Source: Syntrophaceae bacterium UBA4054 (GTDB lineage: Bacteria; Desulfobacterota; Syntrophia; Syntrophales; UBA4778). Taken from it: a stretch of 64,000 bases of DNA. Each line of letters begins with the position of its first letter. Within the stretch, counting starts at the first letter, position 1. Under the pieces are notes generated by a model. That model saw only the letters and a list, made by a program, of their open reading frames with translations, was not told the DNA's origin and searched no databases. The DNA is taken from contig DFZO01000050.1 of NCBI GenBank assembly GCA_002383495.1, positions 19,397 to 83,396 of the forward strand. Reading direction: 5' to 3'. Below, piece after piece: positions 57,863 to 64,000 of the stretch. Made by a program: the position numbers and the translations under genes.

Positions 57863-58300
57863 ATGCAGGACGAGGACAAGAAAGAAAAAAGTTTTGTCGT
57901 GAAGGATCGGCGGAAATTCACGGAGACAGGCGAAAGCCGTGAGGATGAGGTCGGTAAGCCGGAAGAGACAAAAACAGGGGAGCCTGTCAAGGAGGGAGAG
58001 GAGACAGCGGAACAGAAGAGCGGGGACAAGGCGGCGGAAGAGGCCTACATGCCGGAGATGAACTTCGCCAGTTTCATATTCTCGCTCAGCACCTCCGCCA
58101 TGTATCATTTCGGCGATTTCCCGGACCCCGTCTCAAAGAAGGCGCAAAGAAACCTTGCAGCAGCCAGGCAGACGATCGACATCATCGCCATGCTGAGAGA
58201 GAAAACGGAAGGCAATCTCGACTCCGACGAAAAGAACCTGATCGACACAATTCTTTTCGAGCTCCGGATGCGGTATGTTAAAGAAAAGGATAAGGGATGA
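57863..58300 (+). CDS. DUF1844-family protein
   Basis: ARQTIDIIAMLREKTEGNL...LFELRMRYV. Confidence 0.8.
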   Translation: MQDEDKKEKSFVVKDRRKFTETGESREDEVGKPEETKTGEPVKEGEETAEQKSGDKAAEEAYMPEMNFASFIFSLSTSAMYHFGDFPDPVSKKAQRNLAAARQTIDIIAMLREKTEGNLDSDEKNLIDTILFELRMRYVKEKDKG

Positions 58301-59130
58301 TCAGGCAATCCCCCGCGAAGGTTAATCTTTTCCTGAAAGTGCTTGGAAGGCGGGAGGACGGCTATCACGATATTGCCACCCTCATGCAGCGGATCAGCCT
58401 TTACGATGATCTGGATATTTCCCTTGAGGGAGAGAATATCCGCGTGAGGTGCCCGGGGAGTTCTCTGCCGGAAAACGGGGAGAACATTGTTTACAGGGCG
58501 GCAGAGGTTTTTCTGACGAGGGCCCGCTGCAGCCGGGGGGTTGAAATCACCCTTCGAAAGAGGATTCCCATTGCTTCCGGGCTCGGGGGAGGAAGCTCGA
58601 ACGCGGCAACAACGCTCGTGACCCTGAATGAATTGCTGGGAAAACCTTTCAGCGACGGGGAATTGATGAAAATGGGAGCGGAGATCGGGGCGGACGTCCC
58701 TTTTTTCATTTTTGGAAAGACCGCCTGGGCTTTCGGCATAGGAGATCAGCTTCAGGAGGCGGAAGGAGTTCCGGATCTGTGGTTTGTTCTTTTGAATCCC
58801 GGGTTCGGTATTTCCACTAAAATGGTCTACGAAAACCTCAATTTGGGATTGACAAAAGAGGGAATTAGGTTTAGCATCCAAAACTTTCTTACGGCAGGGG
58901 ACATGGCAAGAGGGCTTCAAAACGATCTCGAAAAGGTTGCCTTTCGTCTGCAGCCCCTTCTCATTGATTTGAAAAGGATTTTGGTGGACCACGGTGCGCT
59001 CGGTTCTCTCATGTCGGGGAGCGGGGCAACCGTATTCGGCATTTTTGCTGAAGAACAAGATGCCCTGAGAGCCGGAGAAGCGCTGAAACAGGCCGGAAAG
59101 TGGTCCGTATTTACGGCTCATTCGCTGTAG
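58297..59130 (+). CDS. ispE: 4-diphosphocytidyl-2-C-methyl-D-erythritol kinase
   Basis: PAKVNLFL, GYHDI, GLGGGSSNAA, GADVPFF, LMSGSG. Confidence 0.95.
   Translation: MIRQSPAKVNLFLKVLGRREDGYHDIATLMQRISLYDDLDISLEGENIRVRCPGSSLPENGENIVYRAAEVFLTRARCSRGVEITLRKRIPIASGLGGGSSNAATTLVTLNELLGKPFSDGELMKMGAEIGADVPFFIFGKTAWAFGIGDQLQEAEGVPDLWFVLLNPGFGISTKMVYENLNLGLTKEGIRFSIQNFLTAGDMARGLQNDLEKVAFRLQPLLIDLKRILVDHGALGSLMSGSGATVFGIFAEEQDALRAGEALKQAGKWSVFTAHSL
58849..58877 (+). promoter_or_regulatory. Internal sigma70 promoter within ispE
   Basis: TTGACA-N17-TAGCAT in an AT-richer patch of the CDS, pointing at tRNA-Gln-prs-rplY. Confidence 0.6.
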
Positions 59131-59183
59131 TTCAGCCCGTTCTCCTTGATCGTTCAGGTGTGCCGGGTCAACGCAGGAGATAT

Positions 59184-59258
59184 TGGGGCGTCGTCAAGCG
59201 GTAAGACACAAGATTTTGGTTCTTGCATCCGGAGGTTCGAATCCTCCCGCCCCAGCCA
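59184..59258 (+). tRNA. tRNA-Gln(TTG)
   Basis: TGGGGCG/CGCCCCA acceptor stem, anticodon arm CAAGA-TTTTGGT-TCTTG, GGTTCGAATCC, CCA; conserved ispE-tRNA-Gln-prs context. Confidence 0.95.
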
Positions 59259-59347
59259 TCATTGAAACATGACAGGGAAGGCGAAGCACATCTTTTTTAA
59301 TTGATTTAAACTTTTTCCGTCAATGGACGACTTCCGAGGATAATGAG

Positions 59348-60289
59348 ATGCTAGAGAGAATAAGAATCTTTTCCGGCAATTCCAATATAAATCTTGCGCA
59401 AAAGATCTGCAAGAACCTGGGGGTGCCGCTTGGCAAGGCAAATGTGGCCACCTTCAGTGACGGCGAGACCCGGGTCGAGATCAACGAAAACGTGAGGGGC
59501 ATGGACGTTTTCATTATCCAGTCCACCTGTCCACCCGTGAACAACAACTGCATGGAACTGCTGATCATGATCGACGCCATGAAGAGGGCTTCGGCGGACC
59601 GGATCACGGCGGTCATCCCGTATTACGGCTATGCCCGGCAGGACAGAAAGGTGGCGCCGAGAGCGCCCATCACGGCGAAACTCATCGCGGATCTCATCAC
59701 GACCGCAGGGGCGAACCGGGTTCTTTCCATCGATCTTCATGCGGGACAGATCCAGGGGTTCTTCAATATCCCCGTGGATAACCTTTTCGCTACCCCCGTC
59801 CTCCTCGATTATATGAGAACGAAGTTTATGGAGAACACGGTGATCGTGTCCCCCGATACGGGAGGCGTGGAAAGGGCAAGAGCCATCGGAAAGCGGCTCG
59901 ACGCGAACCTGGCAATTATCGACAAGAGGCGGGAAGGGCCGAATGAGTCGGAGGTCATGAATATCATCGGGGACGTGAAAGGGAAGCGGGTCATCATCCT
60001 TGATGACATGATCGATACGGCGGGAACCGTGGTCAACGCGGCGACGGGCCTGGAGAAAGAAGGCGCCAAGGAGGTATCCGTCTGCTGCACCCACGCGGTG
60101 CTTTCGGGGCCGGCCATTGAGAGGATTGAGAAATCAAGCATCAAAGAGCTCATTGTCACGGATACCATCCCCCTGCATGACGGAGCGACCAAGTGCAAAC
60201 GGATAAAGATTCTTTCGGTCGCCGGCCTTTTGAGCGAGGCGGTGAGAAGGATTTACTATAACGACTCAGTGAGCTCATTATTTGTTTAG
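59348..60289 (+). CDS. prs: Ribose-phosphate pyrophosphokinase
   Basis: [43 protein letters not shown]. Confidence 0.97.
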
Positions 60290-60290
60290 C

Positions 60291-60472
60291 GGGCTGTTGA
60301 AAAACGCCCATCTGCGGTGTTGCGCTGCGCCCCTCCCTTCGACAGGCTCAGGGCAGGCTTACAAGTTGTCATGGTGAGCGATGTCACGGTGAGCTTGTCG
60401 AACTGCGAACCATGCGCCTTGCATCTGAACGTTTTTGAACAGCCTGATGAAAAATGTGTTTTTCAAAACCCT
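60291..60472. mobile_element. MITE-like element, copy 2
   Basis: GGGCTGTTGAAAAACGCCCATCTGCGG...GTTTTTCAAAACCCT; reverse-complement homologue of 41203-41346, about 38 bp longer. Confidence 0.8.
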
Positions 60473-60486
60473 TTTAGGAGGCAGGA

Positions 60487-61137
60487 ATGGAAACCATGGA
60501 ATTAAAAGCCCTCATCCGGCAGGGATCGGGGAAAGGGCCTGCGAGGAGATTACGTTCAGCCGGGATGATACCGGCTGTTTTCTACGGCTCGGGAGCGGAA
60601 GCGGTTTCCCTGTCCGTCGGTGCCCGCGATATGCTGAAGTTGCTGAGAGAGAGGGAAGAAAGCCTCTTTGTAAAGCTGAAGATAGATGAAGGCGGAAAGG
60701 AAGCGGAGCATCTTTCCATGATAAAGGAAATTCAGGTGAGTCCCACGGGCGATGGGATCCTTCATGTGGATTTTTATGAGATCAGGATGGATCATGAACT
60801 CACGATAGACGTCCCCATCCATCTTGTCGGACAACCGGTGGGCCTGATCGATGGCGGAGAGTTGTATCACCTGAAGCGGGAACTGAAGATATCGGGCCTT
60901 CCATCATTGCTGCCGGAATATGTGGAAGTGGATGTGAGCGGACTCAAGATCGGCGATTCCGTCAAGGTCGGCGATATTCCCCTTGTGAAGGGGATAGAAG
61001 CCCTTGATGCCGCCGATATCGCCATCGCGTCCGTCGCGGCCACGAGAGCGGCAGAGGTGGTTGAGGAGGCCGCTGAGGAAGCCGCCGCCTCCGAACCGGA
61101 GGTTGTTGGAAAGAAGGCGGAGGAGGGGGAAGCATAG
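60487..61137 (+). CDS. rplY: 50S ribosomal protein L25/TL5 (long CTC form)
   Basis: ARRLRSAGMIPAVFYG, HVDFYE, PEYVEVDVSGLKIGDSV. Confidence 0.95.
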   Translation: METMELKALIRQGSGKGPARRLRSAGMIPAVFYGSGAEAVSLSVGARDMLKLLREREESLFVKLKIDEGGKEAEHLSMIKEIQVSPTGDGILHVDFYEIRMDHELTIDVPIHLVGQPVGLIDGGELYHLKRELKISGLPSLLPEYVEVDVSGLKIGDSVKVGDIPLVKGIEALDAADIAIASVAATRAAEVVEEAAEEAAASEPEVVGKKAEEGEA

Positions 61138-61252: not shown

Positions 61253-61852
61253 ATGAAACTCATCGTTGGACTGGGAAATCCCGGAGATCGTTACCGGTTC
61301 ACAAGGCACAACATGGGCTGTCTCGTCTTGGATGAGCTGGCCGACGAACACGGCATTTCCGTGCGCCGCAAAAAATTCGATGCCGATTTTGGAGAGGGAG
61401 TCATTGCCGGTGTGCCGGTCATGCTGGCCAAGCCGCGGACCTACATGAACCTCAGCGGCACCGCGGTGATGAGGCTTTCCGGTTTTTTCAAAATCGACCT
61501 GACCGATATCATTGTCGTTCATGACGACCTTGACCTTGCCTTCGGAAGCGTCAGGGTCAAGGATGGGGGAGGCCCAGGCGGTCACAAGGGGATGATATCC
61601 GTGATCCAACATCTGGGTGCGCGCGAATTCATCAGGGTGAGGCTGGGAATCGGGAAGCCACTTCTGAAAGCCATGGTTGAAGATTACGTCCTGCAGCTTT
61701 TCAGCCGGGACGAGATGGAAGCGCTCCCTGATATTTTGCGCCGGGCAGCAGATGCTGTCGTTGAGATTCTGACCTCCGGTTCCCAGGCGGCCATGTGCAG
61801 ATTCAACGCGAGAAGGGCCAAGGGAGAAAACAGGGAGGAGGATCCTTGTTGA
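61253..61852 (+). CDS. pth: Peptidyl-tRNA hydrolase
   Basis: MKLIVGLGNPG, TRHNMG, PRTYMNLSG, VHDDLD, GGHKG. Confidence 0.96.
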   Translation: MKLIVGLGNPGDRYRFTRHNMGCLVLDELADEHGISVRRKKFDADFGEGVIAGVPVMLAKPRTYMNLSGTAVMRLSGFFKIDLTDIIVVHDDLDLAFGSVRVKDGGGPGGHKGMISVIQHLGAREFIRVRLGIGKPLLKAMVEDYVLQLFSRDEMEALPDILRRAADAVVEILTSGSQAAMCRFNARRAKGENREEDPC

Positions 61853-63384
61853 ACATAGAGATAGCCGGTTACGCCGCCCTTCCGGGTTTTCTCGCCCTCG
61901 TTGCTGCCGTTCTCATCGTACCCGATATCCGCCGGTCGATCGACTTGAGCCTCCCGATTTTTTCGAGGGATATCTTCAAAACGTCGGCGTTGATGATATC
62001 CTGCCTTTTCCTGTTGATCCTCATTTTTCTTGAGCCGGGATTCTCGTCGGTCGCTTTCCTGGCAGGAATTCTCTCCACTGTTCTGTTCCTCATTTTCTCC
62101 CTTGCCCTGTTCAAATCTGCCGACGCCCGTTCGTCTGACAGAGAAGAGCGCTTTCAAGGATGGAGCCTCGGTCTTGCCGCTCCCGGACTTGCCCTTGCGG
62201 CGATCGGCATCTATCTCGCGATTTTCGCCTGGGAAGACGTTTCGATCCTGAACGCCTATGCCTTCGGCGCGACCTGTGCCCTTGTCCCCATCACCCTCGG
62301 CGGAGTTCAGGTAAAAGAAGGAGATGCGGTTCTGAAGCCAGCGGTTCCTGCCGCGGATTTCTATGTTTCCTCGCTCTGCATTCTTGCGGCCGCCATGACC
62401 ATGGGAGCCGCCATGATGGAATCTAAGCGGGTCTGGATCGGAATGCCGGTTCTTTTTGTCATGGCGGGGCTGGCGGTTTTTCTCGCTGCGGCCGTGGTGA
62501 TGCGGGTTGTGCCCCGTGGACGTCCGTGGTTTTCTCGCGGCATTGCGTATCTCTCTGCCCTTTCGGTCGTGATCGTTTCCTATCTCATCCCCGGAGAACT
62601 GACTCGAAAAATATCGTCGGATACGATCGCCGGACTGGGAATGCTCGACCGCATGGGGCCCTATTGGGCTTCCATAACAGGGGTTCTGACAGGCGCTCTC
62701 CTGACCCTCCTGACCCGTTATGCCACGGCTCAATCAGAGCGCGGCCATAGGAATCTGACTTTCGGCTTTTCCCTTTACTTTGTCGCCGCCTGTGTCTGGA
62801 TATCCTATCTCTTTGCCGATTTGTACGGCATTGCCTTTGCGGGGATGGGGCTGCTTGGTGCGGTGTGTCTGCCTGCAAGTCGACAGATGATCCGGTCCGT
62901 GAAAAGAAATTCAGGAAGCGGAAGTGGCTTTCAACTTGGCGCGTCGGCCTTTTCAACCCTTGCCGTTGTTGCCGCCTGTCTCATGTGGGTCAGTGAAACG
63001 GCAGACTTTGAAGACGGATTTCCTGGATTCGCCGGGGCGGCGGTCCTTGCGGGACTGGTGCCCGGAGTGGGGATAGCTTATGTCATGAGATCCTTCGTGA
63101 AAAAGGTATCGAGGGGAACGCCGGAGGGCACTGAAATCCATTTTCCTTTCATGAGTCCCGATCTCTCCTCCTGTCTTGTGTTTATCTTCATTCCCGTTTT
63201 GATCGGTCTGGTCGCCGGCCCGGAAGTGCTGGGCGGTTTTTTGGCCGGAATGGCTCTGGCGGGGATTTATGCGGTCTTCAGGCTGGACAAAGAGGGCGAG
63301 TCGGAAGATGCGGGACGCCTCAACGGCCTCGTGAAGCTCGCCGCCCTGGCGGCGCTGTTGACAGTGCCTCTCATGATTCTCTAA
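61849..63384 (+). CDS. Membrane pyrophosphatase (HppA)-like polytopic protein lacking all catalytic motifs
   Basis: Helices match mPPase by eye (AFLAG, WISYLFADLYGIA, GSGFQLGASA, GPEVLGGFLAG, LNGLVKL), but no DVGADLVGKVE, DNVGDNVGD, DNAGG, DNAKK or GDTVGD. TTG after GGAGGAG overlaps the pth stop. Confidence 0.75.
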   Translation: MNIEIAGYAALPGFLALVAAVLIVPDIRRSIDLSLPIFSRDIFKTSALMISCLFLLILIFLEPGFSSVAFLAGILSTVLFLIFSLALFKSADARSSDREERFQGWSLGLAAPGLALAAIGIYLAIFAWEDVSILNAYAFGATCALVPITLGGVQVKEGDAVLKPAVPAADFYVSSLCILAAAMTMGAAMMESKRVWIGMPVLFVMAGLAVFLAAAVVMRVVPRGRPWFSRGIAYLSALSVVIVSYLIPGELTRKISSDTIAGLGMLDRMGPYWASITGVLTGALLTLLTRYATAQSERGHRNLTFGFSLYFVAACVWISYLFADLYGIAFAGMGLLGAVCLPASRQMIRSVKRNSGSGSGFQLGASAFSTLAVVAACLMWVSETADFEDGFPGFAGAAVLAGLVPGVGIAYVMRSFVKKVSRGTPEGTEIHFPFMSPDLSSCLVFIFIPVLIGLVAGPEVLGGFLAGMALAGIYAVFRLDKEGESEDAGRLNGLVKLAALAALLTVPLMIL

Positions 63385-63465
63385 TCGGTTCAAAGGTAAT
63401 TGGTCTGTTGCCCAAATGTTTCTGGGATGCATTATTCTCAGGGACAGGTCTCTTCCGGGCTCAGG

Positions 63466-63615
63466 ATCTTTTTATCGACCGTTCTAAATCTCGCTTCACT
63501 GCAAATGCAAAACTCGTCCGCAAGAGGCGGACTCAGACAGTTGCATTTGCGGGCGTGGAATTTATCCTGAGCCTGTCGAAGGGCTGCGATAAGAACGGTA
63601 ACCCGAAAAAAAGAT
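63466..63615. repeat. Nested imperfect palindrome / REP-MITE-like element
   Basis: GCAAATGCAA...TTGCATTTGC arms (63501-63550) around GTCCGC/GCGGAC; outer ATCTTTTT...ACCGTTCT arms; TCCTGAGCCTGTCGAAGGG (63565-63583) is shared with the MITE interiors. Confidence 0.55.
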
Positions 63616-64000
63616 ATTCACCCGTTCAGAATCCTGCCTCCTTCGAATAGGATTGGATGTGCTATGCGCTACTTGAGGAACCGACCGTAAAGTCCCAACC
63701 TTTGTTTGAGGTAAGGAACATCATCCGATCAAGTCATTACTTGATGAGCGCTTTCACCATTCATTTTTCATGACCAACCTTTAATTGAAAGTCAAGATTA
63801 CGAAAAAATGAGTAACGCTGAATCTGAGCGGTTATCGAAACGCCTTGTTATAGGCTGGAAAACTAACTGCGTAGCTGGTATAATTTTTGGAAATCTCAAA
63901 AGGGCAGAACTCTCATTCTGAATGTGGTACGTGCTCTGGGTCAGGTTACTTGCCTACGTAAAAGACAAATACTGCCTTGTCGATTCCGCAAGCACCATGG

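What the first reader, a model, noticed from the sequence alone, without database searches (positions are those of the whole stretch)
61849..63384. Membrane pyrophosphatase scaffold with every catalytic loop deleted but the reading frame intact
Seen: a 511-aa open frame, translationally coupled to pth, whose hydrophobic segments follow mPPase helix order (AYAFGA..LGG; WASITGVLTG; WISYLFADLYGIA; GSGFQLGASAFSTLA; IPVLIGLVAGPEVLGGFLAG; LNGLVKL). The acidic PPi/Mg motifs (DVGADLVGKVE, EDDPRN, DNVGDNVGD, DAYGPIADNAGG, DNAKK, GDTVGDPFKD) are missing as whole blocks, not point-mutated. Remnants near the ion gate persist (AADFYVSS for ADLFES; DAGRLNGLVK for DTSGPSLNILIK). Established: those motifs are essential, full enzymes are about 650-750 aa, hppA often follows pth in this phylum, and PPi-linked ion pumping matters in syntroph energetics. 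Inference: not a decaying pseudogene but a repurposed pseudo-enzyme, such as a passive H+/Na+/K+ conduit, a transporter, or a dominant regulatory subunit heterodimerising with an active mPPase.
Basis: partly seen in the sequence, partly recalled or inferred. Interest (0 to 1): 0.88.

Follow-up and report, generated by a model that had tools for sequence, protein, structure and literature searches.

The report
Membrane pyrophosphatase stripped of catalytic loops
The gene after pth encodes a conserved 16-helix membrane protein that descends from an ion-pumping pyrophosphatase but has lost every loop needed to split pyrophosphate, and the same stripping has happened independently in at least two other bacterial lineages, so the bare membrane core probably has a use of its own.

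Summary
Window 61846-63384 (+) encodes a 512-aa protein ("X") whose TTG start overlaps the pth stop. It is a full-length homologue of membrane pyrophosphatase (mPPase): Pfam H_PPase scores just above its cut-off, profile-profile comparison gives 99.9% probability (E 7e-34), and the AlphaFold model matches only mPPase structures. All 16 helices are kept. Five cytoplasmic blocks carrying every PPi/Mg/funnel residue are gone.

X is not a fresh pseudogene:
- It sits in the slot where sister families carry an active 685-692-aa hppA, and it branches as sister to those enzymes.
- It is present in 4 of 6 genera of its GTDB family.
- dN/dS is 0.30-0.40, against 0.04-0.12 for active mPPases.
- It has gained an invariant periplasmic motif, LDRxGPFWA.
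- It is truncated in one genus and lost in another, so it is dispensable.

An intact 803-aa hppA lies elsewhere in the genome. Two other short families (about 500 aa, Firmicutes-like; 552-589 aa, Longimicrobium) lost the same blocks independently (AU test p 2.6e-6). All three keep the gate pair D6.50/K16.50.

Function is untested. My best guess is a PPi-independent membrane module built around the old ion gate. I found no description of it in the searched literature.

The parts
61846..63384 (+). Gene X: 512-aa, 16-helix, non-catalytic derivative of membrane pyrophosphatase.
   Evidence: ORF and translation. Pfam H_PPase 32.5 bits against a cut-off of 29.7. hhalign 99.9%, E 7e-34. AF2 pLDDT 82, pTM 0.87. 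Foldseek: the top 32 hits are all mPPases, E down to 7e-13, TM 0.70-0.74.
61833..61841 (+). Shine-Dalgarno-like GGAGGAGGA, 4 nt upstream of the TTG start and inside the 3' end of pth.
   Evidence: A purine-rich stretch and the TTG start are conserved in all 9 loci compared.
61253..61852 (+). pth (peptidyl-tRNA hydrolase, 199 aa). Its TGA stop (61850-61852) overlaps the start of X.
   Evidence: Pfam Pept_tRNA_hydro on the orthologous gene in L002-L004.
58297..61137 (+). Upstream genes of the conserved cluster: ispE (58297-59130), prs (59348-60289) and ribosomal protein L25/Ctc (60487-61137).
   Evidence: ORFs. The same order, with Pfam families, is seen in L002, L003, L004 and L048.
62299..62331 (+). 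Remnant of cytoplasmic loop 5-6 (residues 151-161, about 11 aa). It replaces about 45 aa that carry KAADVGADLVGKVE, EDDPRNP and DNVGDNVGD.
   Evidence: Alignment. Residue table.
62356..62370 (+). TM6 gate remnant DFYVS: D170 = D6.50 (kept), V173 = position 6.53 (Glu lost), S174 = S6.54 (kept).
   Evidence: Numbering against Vigna radiata PPase D294.
62644..62670 (+). Family-specific motif L-D267-R268-M-G-P-Y-W-A in periplasmic loop 8-9 and the start of TM9. D, R and P are invariant in 21 of 21 family members. The active sister enzymes have SS, GP or SA in place of DR.
62908..62925 (+). Remnant of cytoplasmic loop 11-12 (residues 354-359). The DAYGPxxDNAGG...GNTTAAxGKG block is absent.
63292..63300 (+). 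Remnant of cytoplasmic loop 15-16 (residues 482-484). About 40 aa carrying WDNAKKY...GDTVGDPFKDT are absent.
63322..63336 (+). TM16 gate remnant NGLVK: N492 = N16.46, K496 = K16.50. The 16.50 position is Lys or Arg in 20 of 20 family members.

Best explanation
Gene X is the positional and phylogenetic descendant of the pth-linked, K+-dependent-type (about 690 aa) membrane pyrophosphatase of this order (Syntrophaceae/Smithella-like).

Inferred history: after the lineage came to rely on a second, 803-820-aa-type HppA at another locus, the pth-linked copy lost PPi hydrolysis. Its five large cytoplasmic loops (5-6, 9-10, 11-12, 13-14, 15-16) were trimmed in frame. The 16-helix membrane core was kept under purifying selection.

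Shown here: homology, fold, loss of all catalytic residues, retained topology, age, selective constraint, and convergent stripping in two other lineages.

Inferred from the missing residues: the protein cannot bind or hydrolyse Mg-PPi, so whatever it does is independent of PPi.

My committed guess at mechanism (inferred, about 0.3): the core acts as a low-abundance membrane module built around the old ion gate, a buried Asp6.50-Lys/Arg16.50 pair with Ser6.54. With the cytoplasmic funnel gone, that gate lies close to the cytoplasmic surface. The module would give a passive or voltage/pH-responsive cation (H+/Na+) path, or a cation-binding site. The newly fixed periplasmic Asp-Arg motif would be part of the new function.

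The confidence value given applies to the identity and retention claim, not to the mechanism.
For: Homology and fold:
- Pfam hit above the gathering score.
- Collinear BLASTP, E 3e-19.
- hhalign 99.9%, E 7e-34 over 520 columns.
- The family profile scores 300-318 bits on the 685-692-aa mPPases of sister families and nothing on the 803-826-aa type.
- AF2 pLDDT 82, pTM 0.87 with 16 helices.
- Foldseek hits only mPPases.
- K+R count is 16 on predicted cytoplasmic loops against 5 on periplasmic loops, as expected for the mPPase topology.

Catalytic loss:
- Every invariant Asp/Lys/Glu/Asn of the hydrolytic centre and funnel is absent in 20 of 20 members.

Origin:
- pth-hppA adjacency holds in 30 of 33 loci of the class.
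- X is monophyletic (support 99-100) and sister to L012/L013/L015 (support 88-96).

Retention:
- Orthologues are 46-98% identical, and more distant members (21-34% identical) show the same synteny.
- dN/dS is 0.30-0.40, against 0.09-0.17 for pth and 0.04-0.12 for active mPPases.
- The deletions are in frame and confined to loops.
- The TTG start and SD-like stretch are conserved.
- The invariant LDRxGP motif is gained and is absent from active relatives.

Gate:
- D6.50 is acidic in 20 of 20 members (18 Asp, 2 Glu).
- K/R16.50 is kept in 20 of 20 and S6.54 in 17 of 20.

Convergence:
- Families Y and Z lost the same five blocks and keep D6.50 and K16.50; S6.54 and N16.46 are mostly kept.
- The AU test rejects a single origin, p 2.6e-6.
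Against: - There is no expression evidence. No RNA run holds the stretch.
- X is dispensable. It is lost without remnant in one genus (G002) and truncated to 362 aa, without TM13-16 and therefore without K16.50, in another (G009).
- Constraint is relaxed 4-8 fold relative to active enzymes.
- The gate Glu is lost at 6.53 (V/L/T/A/I), and position 6.57 is Cys. N16.46 is kept in only 10 of 20 members. The mPPase cation site is therefore incomplete in X.
- Inner-ring helices are not more constrained than outer-ring helices (omega 0.35-0.45 against 0.27). That fits poorly with a selected ion pathway.
- The confident AF2 model needed mPPase rows in its alignment. With 9 family rows alone, pLDDT was 42.6.
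Confidence: 0.85

Rival explanations
1. X is a slowly decaying relic with no function of its own. The frame survives because a misfolding polytopic protein, translated by coupling from the essential pth, would be harmful. Selection then acts only against toxic variants until a clean deletion removes the gene.
For: - Omega is 4-8 times higher than in active mPPases and fairly uniform along the protein.
- The gene is lost in G002 and truncated in G009.
- The weak TTG start is conserved.
- No RNA evidence was found.
Against: - X has persisted across at least four genera and further metagenomic lineages, down to 21% identity, with all 16 helices kept.
- Bacterial deletion bias should have removed a useless 1.5-kb gene over that time.
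- The loss is by in-frame trimming of loops only, with no frameshift in 20 sequences.
- A new invariant Asp-Arg-x-Gly-Pro motif has been gained.
- The same end state was reached three times independently, each time with conserved synteny.
Confidence: 0.12
2. X is a non-catalytic partner that pairs with the active 803-aa HppA, or with itself, through the old dimer interface (TM10, 13, 15) and modulates pumping.
For: - mPPases are obligate dimers with cross-talk between subunits (established knowledge; the time-resolved TmPPase entries 8b21-8b24 listed come from that work).
- Every genome of the family that carries X also carries one 810-aa-type HppA, except the 87%-complete G008, where none was found.
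- TM10-11 and TM15 are among the best conserved stretches of X.
Against: - X derives from the 690-aa type, which is only 27-29% identical to the 803-826-aa type.
- The X profile does not detect the 803-826-aa type at all, so a shared interface is doubtful.
- The 810-aa type works without X in G002.
- The two genes are unlinked: contigs C1 and C40.
- No complex prediction could be run.
Confidence: 0.12
3. X is still a working pyrophosphatase, or another phosphohydrolase, that uses a rebuilt active site.
For: - NCBI annotates the analogous Longimicrobium protein as 'sodium/proton-translocating pyrophosphatase'.
- The Pfam hit is above its cut-off.
Against: - All residues that bind PPi and Mg in solved mPPases are missing, and the loops that carry them are reduced to 3-15 residues. 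In Vigna numbering these are K250, D253, D257, D283, D287, D507, N534, D691, K694, D727, K730 and D731. Five of them (K250, D253, D257, D283, D287) were checked against the alignment. The rest are recalled from memory; their P0010 equivalents are absent.
- NCBIfam equivalog scores are 17-36 bits against cut-offs of 546-1059.
Confidence: 0.01

Closest known systems
K+-dependent membrane pyrophosphatases (Pfam PF03030 H_PPase; TCDB 3.A.10). Examples: Thermotoga maritima Na+-PPase (PDB 4av3) and the 685-692-aa pth-linked HppA of sister Syntrophales families (loci L012, L013, L015).
   Same: - Same 16-helix fold and topology, in the same helix order.
- Same genomic slot after pth.
- Gate residues D6.50, S6.54, N16.46 and K16.50 are retained in the window protein.
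- Packing glycines are retained: G73, G140, G278, G334, G402, G406, G472.
- X branches as sister to these enzymes.
   Different: - About 180 residues shorter.
- All five large cytoplasmic loops are trimmed.
- No PPi/Mg ligands and no coupling-funnel residues (R5.50 is lost).
- No gate Glu at 6.53 or 6.57.
- Evolves 4-8 times faster.
- New periplasmic LDRxGP motif.
- TTG start overlapping the pth stop.
Family Y (P0030, P0046-P0054; 486-505 aa, in secG-Y-pheST clusters) and family Z (Longimicrobium P0029, P0045; 552-589 aa). Both are unnamed short mPPase-like proteins found here.
   Same: The same five cytoplasmic blocks are missing. The core is retained with D6.50 and K16.50. Each family is conserved, and family Y has its own conserved synteny.
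   Different: - Independent origins from other mPPase clades (AU p 2.6e-6).
- Family Y keeps the whole Na+-site set, including E6.53 in most members.
- Neither family has the LDRxGP motif.
- Both score more strongly on Pfam H_PPase.
Membrane pseudoenzymes such as iRhoms and derlins (inactive rhomboid-fold proteins). This is an analogy only, recalled from general knowledge.
   Same: A polytopic enzyme fold is kept after loss of catalysis and reused for something else.
   Different: There is no homology. Those proteins lost catalytic residues by point changes, whereas here whole catalytic loops were excised. No function is known for X.

Membership tests
Pfam PF03030 H_PPase (homology to membrane pyrophosphatase) | Score at or above the curated gathering cut-off (29.7 bits) | tested here: met
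   P0001 scores 32.5 bits and P0006 33.6 bits. More distant members score 15-18 bits, below the cut-off. Profile-profile comparison settles homology: 99.9%, E 7e-34.
Pfam PF03030 H_PPase (homology to membrane pyrophosphatase) | 16-helix mPPase fold with N-out topology | tested here: met
   AF2 model with 16 helices, pTM 0.87. Foldseek: only mPPase chains, E 7e-13 to 5e-7, query TM-score 0.60-0.74. K+R 16 inside against 5 outside. Caveat: the alignment used for the model contained mPPases.
Functional membrane pyrophosphatase (H+/Na+-PPase, EC 7.1.3.1 / 7.2.3.1) | Hydrolytic-centre motifs: KAADVGADLVGKVE, EDDPRNP, DNVGDNVGD (loop 5-6/TM6); DAYGPxxDNAGG (TM11-12); WDNAKKY and GDTVGDPFKD (TM15-16) | tested here: not met
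   All are absent as blocks in 20 of 20 family members.
Functional membrane pyrophosphatase (H+/Na+-PPase, EC 7.1.3.1 / 7.2.3.1) | Complete ion gate / cation site: R5.50, D6.50, E6.53 or E6.57, S6.54, D/N16.46, K16.50 | tested here: not met
   D6.50, S6.54, N16.46 and K16.50 are present in the window protein. R5.50 is Thr, 6.53 is Val and 6.57 is Cys.
Functional membrane pyrophosphatase (H+/Na+-PPase, EC 7.1.3.1 / 7.2.3.1) | NCBIfam equivalog models for sodium-translocating pyrophosphatase reach their cut-offs | tested here: not met
   Best score 35.8 bits against a cut-off of 546.
Functional membrane pyrophosphatase (H+/Na+-PPase, EC 7.1.3.1 / 7.2.3.1) | PPi hydrolysis coupled to ion transport | not testable with these tools
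   Needs biochemistry.
Pseudogene (decaying hppA) | Frameshifts or stops, dN/dS near 1, no orthologues with the same structure | tested here: not met
   The frame is open in all 20 members. dN/dS is 0.30-0.40 by NG86 and 0.44-0.59 by YN00. Orthologues with identical architecture occur in 4 of 6 genera.

The most novel reading that the evidence does not exclude
Loop-stripped mPPase cores (X in Syntrophales, Y in a Firmicutes-like lineage, Z in Longimicrobium) form a recurrent and so far undescribed class of PPi-independent membrane proteins. They reuse the pump's ion gate and exit channel as a passive or regulated H+/Na+ pathway or cation sensor. In other words, a primary pump has repeatedly evolved into a channel-like or uniporter-like protein by shedding its motor.
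Probability: 0.25. Interest if true: 0.8.

Novelty: new variant of a known kind. Interest (0 to 1): 0.62.

Why it matters
mPPases are simple, single-polypeptide primary ion pumps. How PPi hydrolysis is coupled to ion passage is still debated.

A natural, conserved protein that keeps the 16-helix core and the gate Asp-Lys pair but lacks the whole hydrolytic centre and coupling funnel is a ready-made 'motor-less' version. It allows a direct test of what the membrane part does on its own: leak, gating, ion binding, dimerisation.

The same stripping arose at least three times. That argues the core has a selectable function, and it would add a pump to the short list of membrane pseudoenzymes.

There are practical consequences too. 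These proteins are annotated either as 'hypothetical' or, wrongly, as active Na+/H+-PPases. That can mislead energy-budget reconstructions of syntrophs, where PPi-linked ion pumping is counted.

Tried and rejected
1. Sequence searches of X and of its 9-sequence profile against PDB chains found nothing. Homology was only visible by Pfam, profile-profile comparison and fold.
2. AF2 with the 9 close orthologues alone gave an unusable model, pLDDT 42.6. It was replaced by a 36-row alignment.
3. The exhaustive representative search with the 9-sequence profile listed 23 short proteins and no genuine mPPase. The same profile gives 64-137 bits on mPPases locally. This discrepancy is unexplained, so I did not use as evidence of distance from mPPases.
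4. RNA evidence: no run holds the stretch. Only DNA runs from hydrocarbon, sediment and groundwater metagenomes do.
5. Region-wise dN/dS, run to look for a specially constrained ion pathway: inner-ring helices are not more constrained than outer ones. This did not support the conduit idea.
6. Search for remnants of X in the genus that lacks it (tblastn and profile on six frames): none found.
7. Terminator/promoter and Rfam scans downstream of X gave nothing meaningful.
8. Literature searches on pseudoenzyme, inactive, truncated or pseudogene mPPases, and on Smithella pyrophosphatase, found no description.
9. Earlier notes of this scan held nothing on this stretch or on look-alikes.
10. The L016 '687-aa' ORF used in the first tree was a wrong-strand artefact. 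It was dropped in the second tree.
Full report
**1. What is there**

The sequence around its start reads GGAGGAGGA-TCC-TTG-TTG-AAC. The pth stop TGA (61850-61852) lies inside TTGTTGA. Orthologue P0002 and the JGI gene calls in three related contigs start at the first TTG. I therefore place the gene at 61846-63384 (512 aa), one codon longer than reported. In all nine related loci compared, the start is a TTG at the same place, preceded by a purine-rich stretch within the end of pth. Translational coupling is inferred from this geometry and was not measured.

**2. It is a full-length relative of membrane pyrophosphatase**

- Pfam H_PPase scores 32.5 bits against a curated cut-off of 29.7. NCBIfam mPPase models give E 3e-9 but fall far below their equivalog cut-offs.
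- BLASTP against P0010, a 713-aa protein named by its source as a K+-stimulated Na+ pump, is collinear over residues 23-490 against 35-629 (E 3e-19). The large gaps fall exactly on the catalytic loops.
- A 21-sequence alignment of the family against 13 genuine mPPases gives hhalign probability 99.9%, E 7e-34, over 520 aligned columns from TM1 to TM16.
- AlphaFold2 with a 36-row alignment gives pLDDT 82 and pTM 0.87, with 16 helices.
- In Foldseek against the PDB, the best 32 hits are all mPPase chains from Thermotoga, Pyrobaculum and Vigna (E 7e-13 to 5e-7, query TM-score 0.60-0.74). The next hit has E 0.2.

Two caveats apply. That alignment contained mPPases, and with nine close orthologues alone the model was poor. 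The K+R count of 16 on predicted cytoplasmic loops against 5 on periplasmic loops fits the mPPase N-out topology.

**3. What is missing and what is kept**

I tabulated every column that is invariant in the 13 active enzymes and printed the key regions. The family lacks all of the following:
- R5.50.
- The KAADVGADLVGKVE, EDDPRNP and DNVGDNVGD stretch of loop 5-6 and TM6.
- The long loop 9-10.
- DAYGPxxDNAGG...GNTTAAxGKG of TM11-12.
- The long loop 13-14.
- WDNAKKY...GDTVGDPFKDT of loop 15-16.

These blocks are replaced by stretches of 3-15 residues. Numbering was anchored on the Vigna enzyme through the alignment: R242, K250, D253, D257, D283, D287, D294, E301 and K742 fall where I recall the literature placing them. 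Without these residues the protein cannot bind Mg-PPi. This is an inference from established structure-function work on mPPases.

The following are kept:
- The packing glycines G73, G140, G278, G334, G402, G406 and G472.
- D170 (= D6.50), which is Asp in 18 and Glu in 2 of 20 members.
- S174 (= S6.54), kept in 17 of 20.
- Lys or Arg at 16.50 (K496), kept in 20 of 20.
- N492 (= N16.46), kept in the window's own clade only (10 of 20).

The gate Glu is gone: position 6.53 is Val and 6.57 is Cys.

**4. Where it came from**

In 30 of 33 hppA loci sampled from this class, pth lies directly upstream of hppA. This holds for both the 680-740-aa type and the 803-826-aa type.

The window's genome has one intact 803-aa hppA on another contig, not next to pth. 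All ten genomes of the GTDB family except the 87%-complete G008 show a match to that type (fragmentary in three draft assemblies) and no active 690-aa type.

The X profile scores 300-318 bits on the 685-692-aa pth-linked enzymes of sister families. It scores less on more distant 690-aa-type enzymes and nothing on the 803-826-aa type.

In maximum-likelihood trees X is monophyletic (support 99-100) and sister to those sister-family enzymes (support 88-96). Its branches are 5-20 times longer. X is therefore the degenerate descendant of the gene that originally occupied this slot.

**5. Is it kept by selection?**

Evidence that it is kept:
- Eight orthologue clusters are 46-98% identical and 499-513 aa long. 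More distant members (21-34% identical, 494-568 aa) occur in other genera of the same family and in metagenomes.
- Wherever context could be read, the order is M48 peptidase-SLT-DUF1844-ispE-prs-L25-pth-X.
- Pairwise dN/dS is 0.30-0.40 by NG86 and 0.44-0.59 by YN00, at dS from 0.13 to 1.7. The values for pth in the same contigs are 0.09-0.17. For active mPPases of both types they are 0.04-0.12.
- No member has a frameshift or stop, and the deletions are confined to loops.
- The family has gained an invariant Asp-Arg in LDRxGPFWA (periplasmic loop 8-9). Its closest active relatives have SS, GP or SA at that position.

Evidence for dispensability:
- One genus has lost X without trace.
- One genus carries a 362-aa copy that ends after TM12.
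- Constraint is uniform along the protein, and the inner ring is not better conserved than the outer ring.
- No RNA data could be found.

**6. The same thing happened elsewhere**

The profile search also pulled out short mPPase-like proteins from unrelated organisms.

- *Family Y.* It comprises ten clusters of 486-505 aa that are 46-70% identical. It lies in a conserved gap-pgk-tpi-secG-Y-pheS-pheT cluster. Its nearest active relatives are 670-aa Na+-PPases of Firmicutes, at 28-30% identity.
- *Family Z.* It comprises a 589-aa Longimicrobium protein, which NCBI names 'sodium/proton-translocating pyrophosphatase', and a 552-aa relative.

Both families lack the same five cytoplasmic blocks and keep D6.50 and K16.50; S6.54 and N16.46 are mostly kept. 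Family Y also keeps E6.53 in most members.

Each family nests with a different active clade. An AU test rejects one origin for all short forms (log-likelihood difference 122, p 2.6e-6). Long-branch attraction would pull the short forms together, so this rejection is conservative.

**7. What it does**

This is not known. The protein cannot be a pyrophosphatase. Convergent retention of the bare core with its buried Asp-Lys pair suggests the core is useful on its own.

I commit, at about 0.3, to a PPi-independent cation pathway or binding module built around the former gate. I hold a non-functional, slowly dying relic at about 0.12, and a dimer partner or regulator also at about 0.12. The evidence for and against each is listed in the respective fields.

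**8. Novelty**

Full-text searches for inactive, truncated, pseudogene or pseudoenzyme mPPases found nothing, and a Smithella genome paper mentions only one ordinary PPase. Earlier notes of this scan hold nothing on it. The search is limited to the held library.

I file X as a new variant of a known kind: a non-catalytic, loop-stripped derivative of the mPPase family, with two convergent counterparts.

Noticed in passing
L050:7001-8518, L051:2347-3864, L052:4253-5758 (proteins P0047, P0048; also P0030, P0046-P0054): Family Y is a second, independent family of 486-505-aa loop-less mPPase-like proteins. It sits in a conserved gap-pgk-tpi-secG-Y-pheS-pheT cluster and keeps the full Na+-site residue set (D6.50, E6.53, S6.54, N16.46, K16.50).
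   Followed up: partly
L049:533-2302 (P0029, Longimicrobium sp., GCA_036389795.1) and P0045: A third independent short form (552-589 aa) lacks the catalytic blocks, yet NCBI annotates it as 'sodium/proton-translocating pyrophosphatase'. This is probably a mis-annotation.
   Followed up: partly
L047:1505-2593 (G009, same GTDB family): A 362-aa copy of X lies after pth and overlaps its stop. It ends after TM12 and is followed directly by a GNAT acetyltransferase gene. It is either a decaying copy or a shorter functional form.
   Followed up: partly
L046:1494-2165 (G002, same GTDB family): About 670 nt without an ORF follow pth where X should be. Neither tblastn nor the profile detects any remnant of X.
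   Followed up: yes
G000 contig C1:63447-65567 (L001:1372-3783, minus strand): This is the genome's only intact mPPase. It has 803 aa, a signal-like N-terminus and GNTFKAT (Lys at the K+-dependence position), so it is probably K+-independent. Unlike its closest relative in another family (L027), it is not next to pth.
   Followed up: partly
P0125: An 870-aa protein has precomputed Pfam domains OmpA (PF00691) plus H_PPase (PF03030). This is an unusual fusion and was not examined.
   Followed up: no
window 63385-64000: More than 600 nt downstream of X have no convincing ORF and no Rfam match. A promoter-like site (10 of 12 matches, with TG) lies at 63856-63884 on the + strand. Related contigs carry minus-strand genes here instead.
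   Followed up: partly
The exhaustive representative search with the 9-sequence profile returned no genuine mPPase. The same profile scores 64-137 bits on mPPases when run locally. The reason is unknown.
   Followed up: partly
window 61795-61845: An in-frame GTG at 61795 would give a 529-aa product. It lies inside pth and is not used by any orthologue's gene call, so I consider it unlikely.
   Followed up: yes
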